Assembly (NCBI GenBank): GCA_000092065.1
Contig: CP000587.1
DNA: 64,000 bases
Source of the DNA: Ostreococcus lucimarinus
Taxonomy: Eukaryota
Direction: 5' to 3' (one strand)
A program made the translations under genes and the position numbers. Of this stretch, positions 29,767 through 32,859 are shown piece by piece. Numbering within the stretch: position 1 is the stretch's first letter; the number at the start of each line of letters is the position of its first letter. The notes under the pieces are model-generated. The model saw only the letters and a list, made by a program, of their open reading frames with translations. It ran no database searches and was not told the DNA's origin.

Positions 29767-32700
29767 CTAGCGCCACTCGACGAAGTGTTGGCGCAGTTGC
29801 TTTGGTCGACAAGAGCGACCTTCTTCGAGGTTGAACTTGTAGCAAACTCCTTGACGCAGTTCCATCGGGAACAAATCCGGATGGAGAATTCGAGCTAAAG
29901 TCTCCACACCATCAACGAGTTGTGGACCGGCTTGACAAATCATTTCGTGGGAGAGAACGAAGACGCGGCGATCGCGCACGGCAGGAATCACCCACCAACC
30001 CGGCTGACTCGCCAAATGTTCTAGCTGTTCGAGCGTCCTCTCCATGGTTTCTTCGGATGATTTACCTATGTAGCAAGGCACGAGAAGTAACACATCTGGG
30101 CCGTACGACAGCACTTGCTCCCATCGCATGCGCTCAGCTGAAACGCCCGGTTCGTGAAGTTCGTCGATACCGCCGGCGATTGATTTCATCTCGGGCAGCC
30201 AGTGTCCGCCGGCGACGAGAGGTTTGATGCCTTCCAAAGACATGACCTTCGGCCTTTCGTCAGCCGTGGCGACGACACGAGCGATAGTACGCAAACGTGA
30301 TCGAAGCTGCGTCAGCAAAGTCACCGCCTTTTCCTTTACACCGCACAAAATCCCGATTTGAAGAATCACGTCCAAGACGTCGCTCAGCGTCTTTGGAGCG
30401 ACGGGGAAGATTGACGGCCGCGACGCGTCGACTTCCAAGGAATCTTCGTCCGAATCAAACTCTGCGTTCGTCAAGAAAACTTCGGCTTCGTGTAGAAACT
30501 TGGCGGTGCCAAAACGCACATCGGTGCACTGTGAGCACACGTCTGGGGTGAAGATGAGTCGAGCCTCTGCGTGGCGCACAAAGTTGACGTCGAAGAAACA
30601 CCATTTGTCGAGCGCGCTCACGTGCGACGACGAGCTATGCCTGGCCTCCAAACGAGTCAGCGAGTTGTAGCTCGACCCGTGATGAGTTCCACCAAAAAAT
30701 TCGAAATCGCCATTCAAAGAGTTCGAAGACTTCTTTCGATTGTCAGCGAGACCAGCGCTCGATTGCGGCAAAGCGAGAGAGTGCAAGTGTCTGGCGACGA
30801 TTTTTGGGTAATCCGTGATGTCCTCTGGAAGCACGCACGCCTCCGTGATGCCGACGATTCGATCGCCGACGCCAAGTGCATAGAGGATAGATGTCGCAGT
30901 CGTGGAAAGGGAAATTATCGACCCCACCGATTGCGGCAACGGAAGCTGCAGCTGCGAAGGCGCGTGGAGATGATCCGCCATGACTTGCGGCGCGGCGCCA
31001 AAGTATAAGTGCAGAGCCACATCGAGCTCGGGTTGCGTCGTTGACTTACGAGGCATTCCCGAGAGTTTCGATATTTGCGCACCCAGTGACTGCATCGACG
31101 CCGATGAGCGCGAGCGGAACATTCCTAATCCCTCCGCCGAGTCCAAGTCAACCGAGTACTCGCGGAAGTCGCGAGACATCGCACGAGCGCGCCGCGGCGG
31201 CAAAACCTGTTTGACTTTTTCTGGTGAATCCGACTGCGCTGACCGCGCGAGCATCTCTTCCTCGCTCATACTCCTGCTTCGTTCGAGAGCCTTGTCGAAC
31301 TTTCTCGAACTGATTGGCGTCAGAGGTCCGAAGCTCTTGCTCATCGTCCTTCGTGAAACCATCGCCGCGCGCGCCGCGGCTTCCGCCGCGCCCGGCGGCA
31401 CGCTTCTGCACGACTCAACGAACGAGGAAGCCAAAGATGGATTAGCGCCAAAGTGAAGGTGTAACTGCGATACCAGCACATTGTTCCACGCGAAACCGTC
31501 GAGATTGATCGAGTTTTTGCCCTTGCCGAATTTTCGTTCCTGCTTCACCTCGTACGTCGCGCCCCAGCCGATGGCGACTTTATCCTCCGTCACGCGCATC
31601 TTGCTCGGTCTATCGCCGTGTATTTCGCTGTATCGAAACGTCTGACCTCGAACGACTTCACCCTCGTTGAACAAAGGATTTCCGGGCGCAATAGTGATCT
31701 CGGCGTATCCCGTCTTCACCGAACTCGTGAGTCGCGTCGCGAAGGGCGCGACGCCGCACATGGATCGAGGCGAGCTCCCATCCGGCGCTGAGAGCGACTG
31801 CGAAAGGAACATCAATCCACCGCATTCGGCGTACACCACGCCTCCTGCTGTGGCAAACGCCGTCACCGCCGATCGTAAAGGCCGATTCTTGAACAAGGCC
31901 TGCGCGTGAAACTCGGGATAACCTCCGCCAAAGATGACGCCTTGGACGTCGCTCGGCAATCCTTCGCCGGCTATCGGACTAAAGTAGACTAATTCCGCCC
32001 CCGCGTCTTCCAACTTGGCTAAATTTTCGGGATAGTAGAAGCAAAACGCTTCGTCTCGAGCGACAGCGATGCGCACTTTCGGCTTTGACGGCCCCGCCTC
32101 GAGTTCCTCTCGCATGGCGCGTTCGAGCGCCAAATCGCGCGCGACGCGCGGCGAAATTTCGTACGCCGGCATCGCTTCGAACAACGCGTCGAGATCGACG
32201 TTTTGCTCGAGCAACATCGCCATGTGCTGAATTTTCTGCTCCATGGCGTCGTCACTCGTCGTCGCCGCGCTCGTTGGATCAAACGTGGGCCCGTTGGTGT
32301 CCTTGGGAATCCCCCCGAAGACGTCCACGTGCGCCATCGCCGCCAAGAGACTTTCTCGCAAGTACTCCGTGTGCGCCTCACCACCGGTTTTGTTGAAAAC
32401 CACCCCCACCAAATTCAACTCCGCGTCGAATTCTCTGTACCCCTTGATCACCGCCGCCACCGAGCGCGCCATGGCGTTACAATCCACCACCAGCAGCACC
32501 CCCGCCTCGAGCCACTTTGCCATCTGCGCCGTCGATCCGTCCTCGCTCATCCCATCTCTCCCATCGTACAGCCCCATCACCCCGTCCACGATCGCCACGT
32601 CGCACGTCTCCGCGTGTTTCGCCACCACCCTCGCCACCGCTCCCGCGCTCATCATGTACCCATCCAGATTTTCGCTCTCCCGCGCGTCCCCGCTCTGGCT

Positions 32701-32859
32701 CCGCAGCGCCGATCGGTGCGCCATGGGATCCACGAAATCGCACCCAACCTTGAACGCTCGCACTCGCAGTCCCCGTCTCGCGTACGCCAGCATCAACGCC
32801 GTCGCGATCGTCGTCTTCCCCACCCCCGAGTGCGTTCCCGCGACGACCACCACCTTCAT
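29767..32859 (-). CDS. Cobyrinic-acid a,c-diamide synthase (CbiA/CobB, ATP-binding plus GATase-3 domains) fused to a C-terminal BtuF-like periplasmic-binding-protein (corrinoid-binding) domain
   Basis: From the ATG at 32859: MKVVVVAGTHSGVGKTTIATALMLAYARRGLRVRAFKVGCDFVDP...VDGVMGLYDG...AVARDEAFCFYYPENLAKLEDAGAELVYFSPI...VIFGGGYPEFHAQAL...VVYAECGGLMFLSQSL...VSQLHLHFG. This is collinear with Salmonella CbiA (ILAGTGSGCGKTT, IEGVMGLYDG, ALADDEAFNFYYPDN, LWLGGGYPE, AIYAECGGLMYLG, HVHFA). After a low-complexity linker comes a FecB/BtuF-like domain (SVGSIISLSTTATSILYALGVGDRIVGITEACV...KPLVAGGHWLPEMKSIAGG...GPDVLLLVPCY...WWVIPAVRDRRVFV). The track ORF extends to 33624, but that N-terminal part is microsatellite or low-complexity. 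Confidence 0.8.
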   Translation of the reverse strand: MKVVVVAGTHSGVGKTTIATALMLAYARRGLRVRAFKVGCDFVDPMAHRSALRSQSGDARESENLDGYMMSAGAVARVVAKHAETCDVAIVDGVMGLYDGRDGMSEDGSTAQMAKWLEAGVLLVVDCNAMARSVAAVIKGYREFDAELNLVGVVFNKTGGEAHTEYLRESLLAAMAHVDVFGGIPKDTNGPTFDPTSAATTSDDAMEQKIQHMAMLLEQNVDLDALFEAMPAYEISPRVARDLALERAMREELEAGPSKPKVRIAVARDEAFCFYYPENLAKLEDAGAELVYFSPIAGEGLPSDVQGVIFGGGYPEFHAQALFKNRPLRSAVTAFATAGGVVYAECGGLMFLSQSLSAPDGSSPRSMCGVAPFATRLTSSVKTGYAEITIAPGNPLFNEGEVVRGQTFRYSEIHGDRPSKMRVTEDKVAIGWGATYEVKQERKFGKGKNSINLDGFAWNNVLVSQLHLHFGANPSLASSFVESCRSVPPGAAEAAARAAMVSRRTMSKSFGPLTPISSRKFDKALERSRSMSEEEMLARSAQSDSPEKVKQVLPPRRARAMSRDFREYSVDLDSAEGLGMFRSRSSASMQSLGAQISKLSGMPRKSTTQPELDVALHLYFGAAPQVMADHLHAPSQLQLPLPQSVGSIISLSTTATSILYALGVGDRIVGITEACVLPEDITDYPKIVARHLHSLALPQSSAGLADNRKKSSNSLNGDFEFFGGTHHGSSYNSLTRLEARHSSSSHVSALDKWCFFDVNFVRHAEARLIFTPDVCSQCTDVRFGTAKFLHEAEVFLTNAEFDSDEDSLEVDASRPSIFPVAPKTLSDVLDVILQIGILCGVKEKAVTLLTQLRSRLRTIARVVATADERPKVMSLEGIKPLVAGGHWLPEMKSIAGGIDELHEPGVSAERMRWEQVLSYGPDVLLLVPCYIGKSSEETMERTLEQLEHLASQPGWWVIPAVRDRRVFVLSHEMICQAGPQLVDGVETLARILHPDLFPMELRQGVCYKFNLEEGRSCRPKQLRQHFVEWR

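What the first reader, a model, noticed from the sequence alone, without database searches (positions are those of the whole stretch)
29767..32859. Eukaryotic fusion of a genuine cobyrinic-acid a,c-diamide synthase (CbiA/CobB) with a BtuF-like corrinoid-binding domain
The N-terminal 500 aa are collinear, motif by motif, with bacterial CbiA, comprising the P-loop AGTHSGVGKTT and a GATase-3 domain with the YAECGG nucleophile. The C-terminal approximately 350 aa have the class-III periplasmic-binding-protein (BtuF/FecB) fold signature. Eukaryotic algae of this lineage are vitamin B12 auxotrophs and are not expected to carry corrin-ring biosynthetic enzymes. A single early-pathway amidotransferase hard-wired to a corrinoid-binding module therefore suggests an undescribed corrinoid salvage, remodelling or acquisition function. 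One possibility is amidation of scavenged incomplete corrinoids or of a related tetrapyrrole, or a B12 capture protein that has retained catalytic activity. The gene has a eukaryotic 5' leader microsatellite and no flanking bacterial genes, which argues against contamination.
Basis: partly seen in the sequence, partly recalled or inferred. Interest (0 to 1): 0.72.

Follow-up and report, generated by a model that had tools for sequence, protein, structure and literature searches.

The report
Eukaryotic CobB amidotransferase fused to binding-protein domain
A picoalga that cannot make vitamin B12 carries an intact, selectively maintained copy of a bacterial B12-pathway enzyme joined to a tetrapyrrole-type ligand-binding domain; the same fusion occurs in many algae, early land plants and water moulds, and no paper I could find says what it does.

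Summary
Window 29767-32859 (minus strand) is one uninterrupted 1030-aa ORF. Residues 1-480 match the curated CobB model over its full length (391 bits, cutoff 254), with P-loop, acidic synthetase residues, Cys346 and His469 intact. Residues 640-1005 adopt a class III periplasmic-binding-protein fold (TM 0.83 to ShuT, 0.73 to BtuF). The gene is Ostreococcus lucimarinus-like, is split into two partial models in GenBank, has no signal or transit peptide, and is under purifying selection (dN/dS 0.12).

The interpretation needs correcting. The fusion is not lineage-specific: it forms an old, monophyletic eukaryotic family (green algae, bryophytes, lycophytes, haptophytes, oomycetes, dinoflagellates, bolidophytes). 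The binding domain is not a BtuF orthologue. It derives from a signal-less, cytoplasmic bacterial subfamily with an invariant cleft cysteine. The glutaminase cysteine has been lost repeatedly in relatives. Mosses and lycophytes, reported to lack B12 metabolism, keep the protein.

The most likely role is cytosolic capture and ATP-dependent amidation of a corrinoid or related tetrapyrrole. That is inferred, not shown. I found no functional study. Verdict: new variant of a known kind, moderately high interest.

The parts
29767..32859 (-). Complete single-exon CDS (1030 codons plus TAG stop) encoding the CobB-linker-PBP fusion protein.
   Evidence: ORF listing and translation. No in-frame ATG lies upstream and the stop is TAG. 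The product is 100% identical to cluster P0001 and 98% identical to P0002. dN/dS is 0.12 against the 98% orthologue.
32290..32859 (-). Residues 1-190: the DTBS/CobB-type ATP-binding (synthetase) domain. It contains the P-loop GTHSGVGKTT (32809-32838), KVGCDFVDP (32725-32751), and D66, D92, D99 and N156.
   Evidence: Pfam CbiA and AAA_26 hits. K15, T16, K37, D41, D44, D66, E/D92, D99 and N156 are invariant or nearly so in 70 eukaryotic homologues and are shared with bacterial CobB. pLDDT is above 90.
32080..32289 (-). Residues 191-260: a poorly conserved helical connector between the ATPase and amidotransferase domains.
   Evidence: Helices 203-255 in the model. Identity to other genera is only 9-19% here.
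31420..32079 (-). Residues 261-480: the GATase_3 glutamine amidotransferase domain. It contains the nucleophile motif YAECGGL (31813-31833; the Cys346 codon is 31822-31824) and HLHF (31450-31461; His469).
   Evidence: Pfam GATase_3, 95 bits. Foldseek matches to GatD and CTP synthase. Cys346 is 26/26 in the bacterial sample and 61/70 in eukaryotes. Its loss in relatives was verified.
30952..31335 (-). Residues 509-636: a disordered, Ser/Arg-rich interdomain linker.
   Evidence: pLDDT is below 50 over residues 509-608 and 622-636. Conservation outside Ostreococcus is low.
29845..30942 (-). Residues 640-1005: the class III periplasmic-binding-protein fold domain of the cytoplasmic 'ECDYP / TQDxCxxC / GGHWxPEM / RPGPRLVDGVE' subfamily. 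Local motif versions are TEACVLPE (30823-30846; Cys675), TPDVCSQC (30526-30549), GGHWLPEM (30187-30210) and AGPQLVDGVE (29902-29931).
   Evidence: Pfam Peripla_BP_2 hit. Foldseek TM 0.83 to ShuT and 0.73 to BtuF. Profile against the PDB: 4m7o 4e-23, V. cholerae BtuF 4.1e-23, ShuT 1.2e-18. Motifs are shared with signal-less bacterial homologues and absent from E. coli BtuF. The C-lobe shows 19 synonymous and 0 nonsynonymous changes.
30613..30780 (-). Residues 694-749: a disordered, Mamiellales-specific insertion in the N-lobe of the binding domain.
   Evidence: pLDDT is below 50. The segment is absent from most other lineages in alignments A2.
30436..30540 (-). Residues 774-808: a second disordered acidic insertion, following the CxxC motif.
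   Evidence: pLDDT is below 50 over residues 774-782 and 797-808. See the alignments.
29770..29844 (-). Residues 1006-1030: a conserved C-terminal tail specific to the green lineage (consensus VLKLxLxxGxxCRPxxLxxxFxP).
   Evidence: Tail alignment. pLDDT is 88-93, with a strand-helix-strand arrangement. In SAR lineages this tail is replaced by a Kelch propeller plus DUF5522.
33059..33090 (.). A perfect (GGTC)8 tetranucleotide microsatellite about 200 nt upstream of the start codon, in the presumed 5' leader or promoter region.
   Evidence: Tandem Repeats Finder: period 4, 8 copies, 100% matches.

Best explanation
This is a nuclear, intronless gene of an Ostreococcus lucimarinus-type picoalga. 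It encodes a cytosolic protein of three modules: a canonical CobB/CbiA-type enzyme (an ATP-dependent carboxylate-activating domain plus a triad glutamine amidotransferase) tethered by a disordered linker of about 130 residues to a class III binding-protein domain. That binding domain descends from a cytoplasmic, signal-less bacterial subfamily.

Proposed mechanism, with each step marked as shown or inferred:
1. Inferred: the binding domain captures a corrinoid in its interlobe cleft. The corrinoid would be incomplete, or damaged by loss of an amide. The invariant Cys675 may serve as a ligand to the metal.
2. Inferred: the tethered binding domain presents the ligand to the CobB synthetase site.
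3. Inferred from the established CbiA/CobB mechanism: ATP activates the c and then the a acetate carboxylate as an acyl phosphate. Ammonia released from glutamine at Cys346/His469 converts it to the amide.
4. Inferred: in relatives that have lost Cys346, free ammonia would have to substitute, or only binding and hand-off would remain.

Shown here: the architecture, the intact catalytic residues in this species, the cytosolic topology, purifying selection, and membership of an old and widespread eukaryotic family.

The physiological role I favour is cytosolic salvage or repair of scarce corrinoid in a B12 auxotroph. An example would be re-amidation of cobalamin c- or a-carboxylic acids, or of scavenged incomplete corrinoids.
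For: - The CobB equivalog NF002204 scores 391 bits (cutoff 254) over its full length, while the CfbB model scores 335, well below its cutoff of 560.
- 72 positions are invariant in both eukaryotic fusions and bacterial CobB, and only about 15 are clade-specific, mostly conservative changes.
- The closest bacterial hits are CobB-CbiC fusions (P0095, P0101, P0108; 42-45% identity). These are genuine corrin-pathway enzymes.
- With the family profile, V. cholerae BtuF ties for best solved relative of the binding domain (4.1e-23). BtuF is also the best PDB hit for the bacterial cytoplasmic homologue (3.6e-13).
- A prokaryotic CobB-PBP fusion (P0120) sits inside a cobU-cobT-cobS-cobC-[fusion]-cobA operon (L001).
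- One of 80 stand-alone bacterial homologues is paired divergently with cobB (L075).
- There is no signal or transit peptide, and orthologues start at the P-loop.
- Purifying selection is strong: dN/dS 0.12, with 19 synonymous and 0 nonsynonymous changes in the PBP C-lobe.
- Most named carriers belong to groups that use or require B12, such as Mamiellales, haptophytes, dinoflagellates and oomycetes (own knowledge, plus 10.1101/2023.06.07.544158).
- Precedents exist for Cys-Co ligation in B12 handling: BtuM (PMC6072759) and MMACHC-MMADHC (PMC12501144).
Against: - No ligand or activity has been measured.
- The protein persists in mosses (Physcomitrium, Ceratodon) and lycophytes (Selaginella, Diphasiastrum). 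These are reported to have lost all B12 metabolism (10.1101/2023.06.07.544158).
- The glutaminase Cys or His has been lost independently in at least eight lineages. These include the B12-auxotrophic sister taxa O. mediterraneus and Bathycoccus.
- Haem-binding proteins are the best structural matches.
- 79 of 80 stand-alone bacterial homologues have no cob genes nearby, and the 10 loci scanned have no B12 riboswitch.
- P0120 is a singleton whose close relatives are unfused.
- The near-identity of the CobB site to bacterial enzymes fits a polycarboxylate precursor better than complete cobalamin, and this alga lacks the rest of the pathway to use such a precursor.
- O. lucimarinus itself has changed two otherwise conserved cleft motifs: LLPSATE to LSTTATS, and SRPGPR to CQAGPQ.
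Confidence: 0.4

Rival explanations
1. The enzyme amidates a different tetrapyrrole, such as sirohydrochlorin, sirohaem or a haem-related macrocycle. This would parallel the CobB homologues DsrN (sirohaem to siroamide) and CfbB (Ni-sirohydrochlorin a,c-diamide). The binding domain would act as a haem- or isobacteriochlorin-type carrier.
For: - The family is known to include non-corrin amidases, DsrN and CfbB (PMC7617358).
- The best structural matches of the binding domain are haem binders: ShuT 0.83, IsdE 0.81, HmuT and RhuT.
- The window's own domain hits ShuT before BtuF by sequence.
- The protein is retained in mosses and lycophytes, which lack B12 metabolism but make sirohaem (plus the preprint).
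- All carrier groups assimilate nitrate or sulfate with sirohaem enzymes, whereas animals neither make sirohaem nor appear among the named hits (own knowledge).
- An invariant cleft Cys could ligate iron.
Against: - The CobB model is passed and the CfbB model is failed.
- The nearest bacterial relatives are corrin-pathway CobB-CbiC fusions.
- According to PMC7617358, DsrN and CfbB derive from the archaeal CbiA branch, whereas this protein matches the bacterial CobB model.
- In plants sirohaem is made and used in plastids, but the protein has no transit peptide.
- No seed plants or fungi, both of which make sirohaem, appear among the named hits.
- No amidated sirohaem or haem is known from eukaryotes (own knowledge).
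Confidence: 0.25
2. The conserved role of the family is non-catalytic. The protein would be a cytosolic ligand-binding chaperone, buffer or sensor built on a CobB scaffold. Amidation would be vestigial or lineage-restricted, and O. lucimarinus would simply not yet have lost the catalytic residues.
For: - Cys346 is replaced in O. mediterraneus, Bathycoccus, Riccia, Elliptochloris, Diphasiastrum, Selaginella, Tetraselmis, Picochlorum and P0070.
- His469 is lost in Pavlova and others.
- Ulvophytes have also lost the P-loop Lys and D41, yet keep the PBP motifs.
- The GATase domain remains 80% identical in O. mediterraneus despite the missing nucleophile.
- The PBP C-lobe is the most constrained part of the protein, with 19 synonymous and 0 nonsynonymous changes.
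- SAR homologues add protein-interaction modules (Kelch propeller, DUF5522), which is typical of adaptor or regulatory proteins.
Against: - In 61 of 70 homologues, including the window protein, the nucleophile is kept.
- ATP-site residues are invariant in almost all lineages.
- 72 positions are co-conserved with active bacterial enzymes. That is hard to explain without catalysis.
- Loss of the glutaminase is compatible with ammonia-dependent amidation, as is known for CbiA and other amidotransferases (own knowledge).
Confidence: 0.2
3. The fusion is an artefact: bacterial contamination, a mis-assembly, or two adjacent genes read through. GenBank's split into XP_001419027 and XP_001419026 would imply the last of these.
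For: GenBank annotates two partial models at this locus, a 468-aa 'predicted protein' and a 207-aa 'ABC (binding protein) iron compound'. The only prokaryotic fusion found (P0120) is a singleton.
Against: - The ORF is uninterrupted across both halves.
- The same architecture occurs in dozens of independent assemblies and in complete transcripts.
- Synteny with the alpha/beta-hydrolase neighbour is preserved in L084 and L085.
- GC content matches the flanks.
- Eukaryotic sequences are monophyletic in 38 of 40 bootstraps.
- Purifying selection acts across the whole length, including the linker.
Confidence: 0.02
4. It is a secreted or periplasm-like B12 capture protein acting in uptake, as CBA1 or BtuF do.
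For: The class III binding-protein fold is typical of uptake systems. CBA1, the algal B12 uptake protein, is also BtuF-like in fold (PMC10828217).
Against: - The protein begins directly with the first beta-strand and P-loop of CobB, and no in-frame ATG lies upstream.
- Orthologues start at the same position.
- An ATP- and glutamine-dependent enzyme is expected to work in the cytosol.
- The bacterial relatives of the binding domain also lack signal peptides.
Confidence: 0.03

Closest known systems
[quoted passage not shown]
   Same: The N-terminal 480 residues are collinear over the full length and score above the curated cutoffs. The P-loop, the KxGPDxxDP motif, the E/D92 and D99 acidic residues, N156, the Cys346-His469 glutaminase elements and 72 shared invariant positions are all present.
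   Different: It is encoded in a eukaryote that lacks the rest of the corrin pathway. It carries a linker of about 130 residues and a C-terminal binding-protein domain. Sister lineages have dispensed with the nucleophile Cys. Its substrate is unknown.
BtuF, periplasmic vitamin B12-binding protein of the BtuCD-F importer
   Same: It has the same class III two-lobe fold with a backbone helix (TM 0.73 to V. cholerae BtuF). V. cholerae BtuF ties for best solved relative by profile. It shares the N-terminal strand motif (SLxPsxTE...GV..xDYP) and the C-terminal RpxPR motif.
   Different: It has no signal peptide and no transporter context. It does not reach the BtuF equivalog model. It has an invariant Cys in ECDYP, an extra segment of about 30 residues, and a TQDxCxxC motif in place of the BtuF Trp85 loop. 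Haem binders are equally close.
Signal-less bacterial class III binding-protein homologues (unnamed subfamily; Acidobacteriota, Actinomycetota, Nitrospirota, Planctomycetota, Binatia and others)
   Same: Identity is 27-31% over the whole domain, and all the diagnostic motifs are shared: ECDYP Cys, CxxC, GGHWxPEM and FSRPGPRLVDGVE. Like the eukaryotic domain, they have no signal peptide and so are presumably cytoplasmic.
   Different: The bacterial proteins are stand-alone, of about 300 residues. They have no conserved operon partner and no curated family or known ligand. The eukaryotic domain is covalently joined to CobB.
DsrN (sirohaem amidase) and CfbB (Ni-sirohydrochlorin a,c-diamide synthase)
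   Same: They are members of the same CobB-type family of tetrapyrrole carboxylate amidotransferases. They show that the scaffold can be re-used for non-corrin macrocycles (PMC7617358).
   Different: The CfbB model is not passed, at 335 bits against a cutoff of 560. DsrN and CfbB are prokaryotic, sit in operons, and are not fused to binding-protein domains. According to the paper they derive from the archaeal branch.
CBA1, algal cobalamin acquisition protein 1
   Same: It is a eukaryotic algal protein whose predicted fold resembles BtuF and which is implicated in B12 handling (PMC10828217).
   Different: CBA1 has a signal peptide, localises to the ER and has no enzymatic domain. It is a separate family. 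I made no direct sequence comparison here.

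Membership tests
[quoted passage not shown] | Full-length match to the curated family model above its cutoff | tested here: met
   NF002204 scores 391.4 bits (cutoff 254) over profile positions 1-420 of 420. 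TIGR00379 scores 346.6 bits (cutoff 261.4).
[quoted passage not shown] | P-loop ATP-binding domain with the conserved acidic and Lys residues of the synthetase site | tested here: met
   GTHSGVGKTT, K37, D41, D44, D66, D92, D99 and N156 are present and conserved across 70 eukaryotic and 26 bacterial sequences.
[quoted passage not shown] | GATase_3 domain with the nucleophile Cys and catalytic His | tested here: met
   The window protein has YAECGGL (Cys346) and HLHF (His469). This feature is not met in several orthologues, including O. mediterraneus, Bathycoccus, Riccia, Selaginella and ulvophytes.
[quoted passage not shown] | Operates within a corrin biosynthetic pathway (other cob/cbi genes in the genome or locus) | tested here: not met
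   The neighbours in the window are a PF03601 protein, an alpha/beta-hydrolase, PP2C and a rubredoxin. No cob genes were seen. The absence of the pathway from the whole genome rests on published knowledge of eukaryotic B12 auxotrophy and was not scanned here.
[quoted passage not shown] | Catalyses ATP- and glutamine-dependent amidation of the a and c acetates of cobyrinic or hydrogenobyrinic acid | not testable with these tools
   This requires an enzyme assay.
BtuF (vitamin B12 ABC transporter substrate-binding protein) | Class III (cluster A) periplasmic-binding-protein fold | tested here: met
   Foldseek gives TM 0.73 to 5ysc and 0.83 to 2r7a. Pfam Peripla_BP_2 scores 55.6-59.3 bits against a cutoff of 27.5.
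BtuF (vitamin B12 ABC transporter substrate-binding protein) | Match to the BtuF equivalog model NF002894 above its cutoff | tested here: not met
   The window domain gives no hit at E<=0.001. The bacterial subfamily members score 29-35 bits against a cutoff of 234.
BtuF (vitamin B12 ABC transporter substrate-binding protein) | Signal peptide or periplasmic location, and partnership with a BtuCD-type permease | tested here: not met
   The domain is internal to a cytosolic protein. The bacterial relatives start at the first beta-strand. No ABC permease is a conserved neighbour.
BtuF (vitamin B12 ABC transporter substrate-binding protein) | Conservation of the B12-contacting residues of E. coli BtuF | tested here: inconclusive
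   In the alignment with authentic E. coli BtuF, the P31/T34/E35-type strand motif and the R246-type Arg are kept in the family consensus. However, the W85 loop is replaced by TQDxCxxC, S51 by the invariant Cys, and Ostreococcus itself has Gln at the Arg position. The contact list is from memory, because the primary paper could not be read.
BtuF (vitamin B12 ABC transporter substrate-binding protein) | Binds cobalamin | not testable with these tools
   This requires a binding assay or a co-folding calculation with the ligand.
CfbB (Ni-sirohydrochlorin a,c-diamide synthase) | Match to NF033195 above its cutoff | tested here: not met
   335.1 bits against a cutoff of 560.
DsrN (sirohaem amidase) | Membership of the DsrN clade, and dsr operon context | not tested
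   No DsrN model appeared in the libraries searched and no DsrN sequence was available. There is no dsr context in a eukaryote.

The most novel reading that the evidence does not exclude
The protein is the first corrin-ring-modifying enzyme that is active in eukaryotes. It would be a cytosolic salvage or repair amidotransferase. Its tethered Cys-bearing binding domain would capture de-amidated or incomplete corrinoids, for example cobalamin c- or a-carboxylic acids arising from oxidative or hydrolytic damage, or environmental analogues. The enzyme would then restore them to usable cofactor. This would add an unrecognised step to eukaryotic B12 economy and widen the pool of 'bioavailable' B12 in the ocean.
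Probability: 0.25. Interest if true: 0.85.

Novelty: new variant of a known kind. Interest (0 to 1): 0.62.

Why it matters
Eukaryotes are thought to neither make nor chemically modify the corrin ring; at most, some algae remodel the lower ligand. Here a canonical ring-amidating enzyme is permanently joined to a tetrapyrrole-type binding domain. It has been conserved under purifying selection across several eukaryotic supergroups, many of them B12 auxotrophs that control marine primary production.

If it acts on corrinoids, the set of B12-related compounds that phytoplankton can use would be larger than assumed. Models of B12 limitation and of algal-bacterial cross-feeding would then need revision.

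If instead it acts on another tetrapyrrole, or works as a non-catalytic chaperone, it would reveal an unknown amidated cofactor or trafficking step. That step would be shared by algae, bryophytes, lycophytes and oomycetes.

Either way, it gives the uncharacterised cytoplasmic bacterial binding-protein subfamily its first functional lead. It also corrects a split gene model in the O. lucimarinus reference annotation.

Tried and rejected
1. Literature searches for any description of the fusion. They found only a passing mention of a 'CobB-like' transcript in Chrysochromulina (PMC4057078). The Kelch hits in the land-plant B12 preprint concern CblX/HCFC1 and are unrelated.

2. Prokaryotic fusions as a guide to function. 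P0120 lies in a cob operon, but its 119 closest relatives are unfused. It is therefore a rare singleton, or possibly a read-through, and cannot carry much weight.

3. Gene-neighbourhood analysis of 80 stand-alone bacterial homologues. Spurious ORFs in high-GC genomes dominated the clustering. The real recurrent neighbours (ECF sigma factor, rhomboid, CNNM/CorC-type protein) are lineage-specific and on the opposite strand. Only L075 has cobB adjacent.

4. A cobalamin riboswitch scan of 10 loci found nothing.

5. NCBIfam and PDB sequence searches gave no specific family for the binding domain.

6. A sequence search of the CobB half against the PDB found no solved relative.

7. Mapping of published BtuF-B12 contacts was not possible, because the primary paper is not held and a residue-term search returned nothing. 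The mapping I give rests on memory and is marked as such.

8. Interdomain geometry could not be assessed. Only pLDDT and pTM are returned, and pTM of 0.57 with a disordered linker gives no reliable arrangement.

9. A first Biopython BLOSUM-distance tree and a MAFFT --auto run timed out. Both were redone with faster settings.

10. Contamination or mis-assembly was considered and rejected; see the rival explanations.

Full report
**1. What is in the sequence**

The minus strand between 29767 and 33624 is one open reading frame. No in-frame ATG lies upstream of 32859, and the frame ends in TAG at 29767-29769.

Pfam places three domains, all above their gathering thresholds:
- CbiA at residues 4-189.
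- GATase_3 at residues 263-473.
- Peripla_BP_2 at residues 824-969.

NCBIfam's curated CobB equivalog NF002204 aligns end to end (profile positions 1-420 of 420) at 391 bits against a cutoff of 254. TIGR00379 also passes. The F430-pathway paralogue CfbB scores 335 bits against a cutoff of 560 and fails.

A perfect (GGTC)8 microsatellite lies about 200 nt upstream of the start codon. GC content is like that of the flanks. The neighbouring genes encode a PF03601 membrane protein, an alpha/beta-hydrolase, a PP2C phosphatase and a rubredoxin.

**2. Structure**

I built an AlphaFold2 model on a 70-sequence alignment (A1). It has pLDDT above 90 throughout residues 1-508 and most of 640-1030. Three stretches are disordered: a linker at 509-636 and two insertions at 694-749 and 774-808.

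Foldseek against the PDB matches the C-terminal half to class III binding proteins:

| PDB match | Ligand class | TM-score |
|---|---|---|
| ShuT (2r7a) | haem | 0.83 |
| IsdE | haem | 0.81 |
| RhuT | haem | 0.79 |
| HmuT | haem | 0.78 |
| V. cholerae BtuF (5ysc) | vitamin B12 | 0.73 |

The N-terminal half matches CTP synthase and GatD. That is the expected combination of a DTBS-like ATPase and a triad amidotransferase.

No CobB or CbiA structure is detectable in the PDB by sequence.

A profile of the binding domain searched against all PDB sequences ranks as follows: the uncharacterised staphylococcal protein 4m7o at 4e-23, V. cholerae BtuF at 4.1e-23, ShuT at 1.2e-18, and E. coli BtuF at about 1e-6.

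So the fold claim holds, and the nearest characterised ligands are tetrapyrroles. Neither structure nor sequence separates B12 from haem.

**3. Organism and gene model**

The product is 100% identical to cluster P0001 and 98% identical to P0002. Members of these clusters include two adjacent GenBank entries of Ostreococcus lucimarinus CCE9901:
- XP_001419027, 'predicted protein, partial', 468 aa.
- XP_001419026, 'ABC (binding protein) family transporter: iron compound, partial', 207 aa.

The reference annotation therefore splits one gene into two partial models.

Complete MMETSP transcripts encode the whole fusion in O. mediterraneus (1042 aa) and Bathycoccus (1254 aa).

Two other Ostreococcus contigs, L084 and L085, show the same gene followed by the same convergent alpha/beta-hydrolase gene.

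Against the 98% orthologue I count 48.5 synonymous and 19.5 nonsynonymous differences, giving dN/dS of 0.12. The C-lobe of the binding domain has 19 synonymous and 0 nonsynonymous changes.

The gene is real, eukaryotic, single and functional. Contamination or read-through can be dismissed.

**4. The fusion is a widespread eukaryotic family**

Of the 120 best homologues, 106 align to both halves. With the third search, the named carriers are:
- Mamiellophyceae and Chloropicon.
- Trebouxiophytes: Myrmecia, Elliptochloris, Trebouxia, Micractinium, Auxenochlorella, Prototheca, Nannochloris and Picochlorum.
- Tetraselmis, Monoraphidium, and the ulvophytes Ostreobium and Bryopsis.
- Streptophyte algae: Chlorokybus, Mesotaenium, Spirogloea and Chara.
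- Liverworts (Marchantia, Riccia), mosses (Physcomitrium, Ceratodon) and lycophytes (Selaginella, Diphasiastrum).
- The haptophyte Pavlova.
- Saprolegnian oomycetes: Aphanomyces, Saprolegnia, Achlya and Thraustotheca.
- Dinoflagellates (Prorocentrum, Polarella) and the bolidophyte Triparma.

In the oomycete, dinoflagellate and bolidophyte proteins the binding domain is followed by a Kelch beta-propeller and a DUF5522 module.

A neighbour-joining tree of the CobB half separates 70 eukaryotic from 26 bacterial sequences in 38 of 40 bootstraps. Within the eukaryotes the topology broadly follows taxonomy. The bacterial sample is narrow, so the source lineage is not resolved. Even so, the pattern points to an ancient acquisition followed mainly by vertical descent.

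The listed hits include no Chlamydomonadales, ferns, seed plants, animals or fungi. That is absence from a capped list, not proof of absence.

**5. The CobB half is canonical, but the glutaminase is dispensable in relatives**

72 alignment positions are at least 90% conserved and identical in both the eukaryotic fusions and bacterial CobB. Only about 15 are clade-specific, and most of those are conservative. The best bacterial hits, at 42-45% identity, are CobB-CbiC fusions, which are true corrin-pathway enzymes.

The residues K15, T16, K37, D41, D44, D66, E/D92, D99 and N156 are invariant or nearly so. From memory, the four acidic positions correspond to D45, D48, E90 and D97 of Salmonella CbiA, which were mutated by the Raushel laboratory.

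The nucleophile Cys346 behaves differently. It is present in 26 of 26 bacterial sequences but in only 61 of 70 eukaryotic ones. The catalytic residues vary by lineage as follows:

| Lineage | Change |
|---|---|
| O. mediterraneus (same in six further cluster members) | Cys346 to Gly |
| Bathycoccus (same in six further cluster members) | Cys346 to Ser |
| Riccia (Marchantia keeps Cys) | Cys346 to Gly |
| Elliptochloris, Picochlorum | Cys346 to Gly |
| Diphasiastrum, Tetraselmis | Cys346 to Ser |
| Selaginella | Cys346 to Ala |
| Pavlova and three unnamed sequences | His469 lost |
| Ostreobium, Bryopsis | P-loop Lys, D41, Cys346 and His469 all lost; binding-domain motifs kept |
| Physcomitrium, Ceratodon | Gene models lack the P-loop region |

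The GATase domain nevertheless stays 80% identical between O. lucimarinus and O. mediterraneus, which is higher than the ATPase domain at 66%.

The window protein itself keeps every catalytic residue. The family as a whole does not depend on glutamine hydrolysis, and in a few lineages it does not depend on ATP either.

**6. The binding domain is not a BtuF orthologue**

I scanned 185,579 prokaryotic genomes with the binding-domain alignment (A2). The scan found 566 relatives. The best 80 are 27-31% identical over the whole domain.

These are stand-alone proteins of about 290-310 residues that begin directly with the first beta-strand (MRIVSLLPSATE...). They have no signal peptide. They come from Acidobacteriota, Actinomycetota, Nitrospirota, Planctomycetota, Binatia and other phyla.

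I aligned them with authentic E. coli BtuF, fetched. The eukaryotic domain and this bacterial subfamily share features that BtuF lacks:
- An invariant Cys in 'ECDYP', where BtuF has YSDYP. This is Cys675 in the window protein.
- An extra segment of about 30 residues after strand 2.
- A 'TQDxCxxC' motif where BtuF has the AWRGGN loop. The motif is missing in Marchantia and Pavlova.
- The motifs 'GGHWxPEM' and 'FSRPGPRLVDGVE'.

No curated NCBIfam model captures the subfamily, and the BtuF equivalog is not reached.

The genomic context of the bacterial homologues is uninformative:
- There is no conserved operon partner.
- None has cobU, cobT, cobS, cobC or cobA nearby, and only one of 80 (L075) has a divergent cobB 73 bp away.
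- No cobalamin riboswitch was found in the 10 loci scanned.

One prokaryotic CobB-PBP fusion, P0120, sits in a cobU-cobT-cobS-cobC-[fusion]-cobA operon. All of its close relatives are unfused.

The domain is thus a cytoplasmic member of the class III fold with a cysteine-bearing cleft and an unknown ligand.

Cys-Co ligation has precedents in B12 handling: BtuM (PMC6072759) and MMACHC-MMADHC (PMC12501144). These are analogies, not evidence.

O. lucimarinus has also altered two consensus cleft motifs, LLPSATE to LSTTATS and SRPGPR to CQAGPQ.

**7. Topology**

The protein begins at the CobB P-loop strand, as do orthologues from many lineages. No upstream ATG exists. It is therefore predicted to be cytosolic.

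This rules out an extracellular or periplasm-like capture role. It also distinguishes the protein from CBA1, the ER-targeted, BtuF-like algal uptake protein (PMC10828217).

**8. What it most likely does**

The covalent and evolutionarily stable pairing of two modules suggests a capture-and-modify device. One module is an intact tetrapyrrole acetate-amidating enzyme. The other is a tetrapyrrole-type binding domain.

I favour a corrinoid substrate, with confidence of about 0.4, for these reasons:
- The enzyme half is CobB-like rather than CfbB-like.
- Its nearest relatives are corrin-pathway enzymes.
- BtuF is the nearest characterised binder by profile.
- The two prokaryotic associations that exist are with cob genes.
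- Most carriers are B12 users or auxotrophs.

A chemically reasonable role is re-amidation of cobalamin c- or a-carboxylic acids or of scavenged incomplete corrinoids. This is inference from corrinoid chemistry and was not tested.

Three observations count against this view:
- Mosses and lycophytes keep the protein, although Dorrell et al. report complete loss of B12 metabolism there (10.1101/2023.06.07.544158).
- B12-auxotrophic sister taxa have lost the nucleophile.
- Haem binders are the best structural matches.

Two rivals therefore stay alive:
- Amidation of another tetrapyrrole, as in DsrN acting on sirohaem or CfbB acting on Ni-sirohydrochlorin (PMC7617358). I put this at about 0.25.
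- A mainly non-catalytic chaperone or sensor role. I put this at about 0.2.

**9. Novelty and verdict**

[quoted passage not shown] I found no paper that describes the architecture or its function. The only mention is of a CobB-like transcript in a haptophyte (PMC4057078).

It is a new variant of a known enzyme kind, found in an unexpected set of organisms and with an uncharacterised partner domain.

Its interpretation is partly supported: undescribed, and possibly corrinoid-related. It needs correction on four points: how lineage-specific the fusion is, whether the domain is a BtuF, whether the protein could act in extracellular capture, and how universal catalytic competence is.

Noticed in passing
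window 29767-32859 (minus strand): The GenBank annotation of O. lucimarinus CCE9901 splits this single ORF into two partial gene models: XP_001419027.1 ('predicted protein, partial', 468 aa) and XP_001419026.1 ('ABC (binding protein) family transporter: iron compound, partial', 207 aa). The reference model appears to be wrong.
   Followed up: yes
Homologues P0051, P0053, P0066, P0104 and others (C-termini); locus L002 13915-14280: Oomycete, dinoflagellate and bolidophyte versions end in a Kelch propeller plus DUF5522. The conserved core of DUF5522 is 'YIDPxSGYSVFT...RPCCGxGCRHCP(Y/W)GHxNV'. This four-Cys pattern resembles a CCG-type metal or Fe-S binding motif. Its function is unknown. The green lineage has a different conserved tail instead.
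   Followed up: partly
L075 299-2548 (Acidimicrobiales MAG DATLTI010000295.1): Among the 80 loci retrieved, this is the only stand-alone cytoplasmic PBP homologue with a cobB gene immediately adjacent. The two genes are divergently transcribed and 73 bp apart.
   Followed up: partly
L001 190-6135 (metagenome contig ERZ27271350:k99_1684898): A prokaryotic CobB-PBP fusion (P0120, 760 aa) lies within a cobU-cobT-cobS-cobC-[fusion]-cobA/btuR operon. It is a singleton whose 119 closest CobB relatives are unfused. It could be an independent fusion or a lost stop codon between cobB and a downstream PBP gene.
   Followed up: partly
P0100 (Tetraselmis striata TSEL_011608, 1372 aa): This second Tetraselmis homologue has the reverse domain order and an extra domain: Glyco_transf_8, then a PBP-like region at about residues 421-625, then CobB at 880-1347. 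It may be a paralogue or a merged gene model.
   Followed up: no
window 30823-30846, 29902-29931 and about 30895-30915: The O. lucimarinus clade has replaced residues that are otherwise conserved in the binding cleft: consensus ECDYP is EACVLP, SRPGPRLVDGVE is CQAGPQLVDGVE, and LLPSATE is LSTTATS. Bathycoccus keeps the consensus. This could signal altered ligand specificity within Mamiellales.
   Followed up: partly
window 30952-31335: The interdomain linker is long (about 130 residues), disordered and rich in Ser/Arg motifs (RSRSMSEEE, SRSSASMQS). It is 66-70% identical within Ostreococcus and has dN/dS of about 0.13, which is higher conservation than expected for a passive tether. It may be a regulatory or phosphorylation region.
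   Followed up: no
window 35623-36189 (minus strand): This ORF encodes a rubredoxin domain (PF00301, 67 bits) with an N-terminal extension and a hydrophobic C-terminal helix. It resembles the membrane-anchored plastid rubredoxins of photosynthetic eukaryotes.
   Followed up: no
window 26586-27932 (minus strand): This ORF encodes a PF03601 ('conserved hypothetical protein 698', YeiH-like) multi-pass membrane protein with an Ala/Ser/Arg-rich N-terminal extension that looks like a transit peptide.
   Followed up: no
window 32899-33037: An imperfect CG-rich repeat tract (periods 2-28) lies between the microsatellite and the start codon. Because of it, the upstream sequence stays open in frame for 255 codons with no ATG. 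Prokaryote-style gene callers therefore produced N-terminally extended models (P0001 at 1088 aa, P0123 at 1154 aa).
   Followed up: partly
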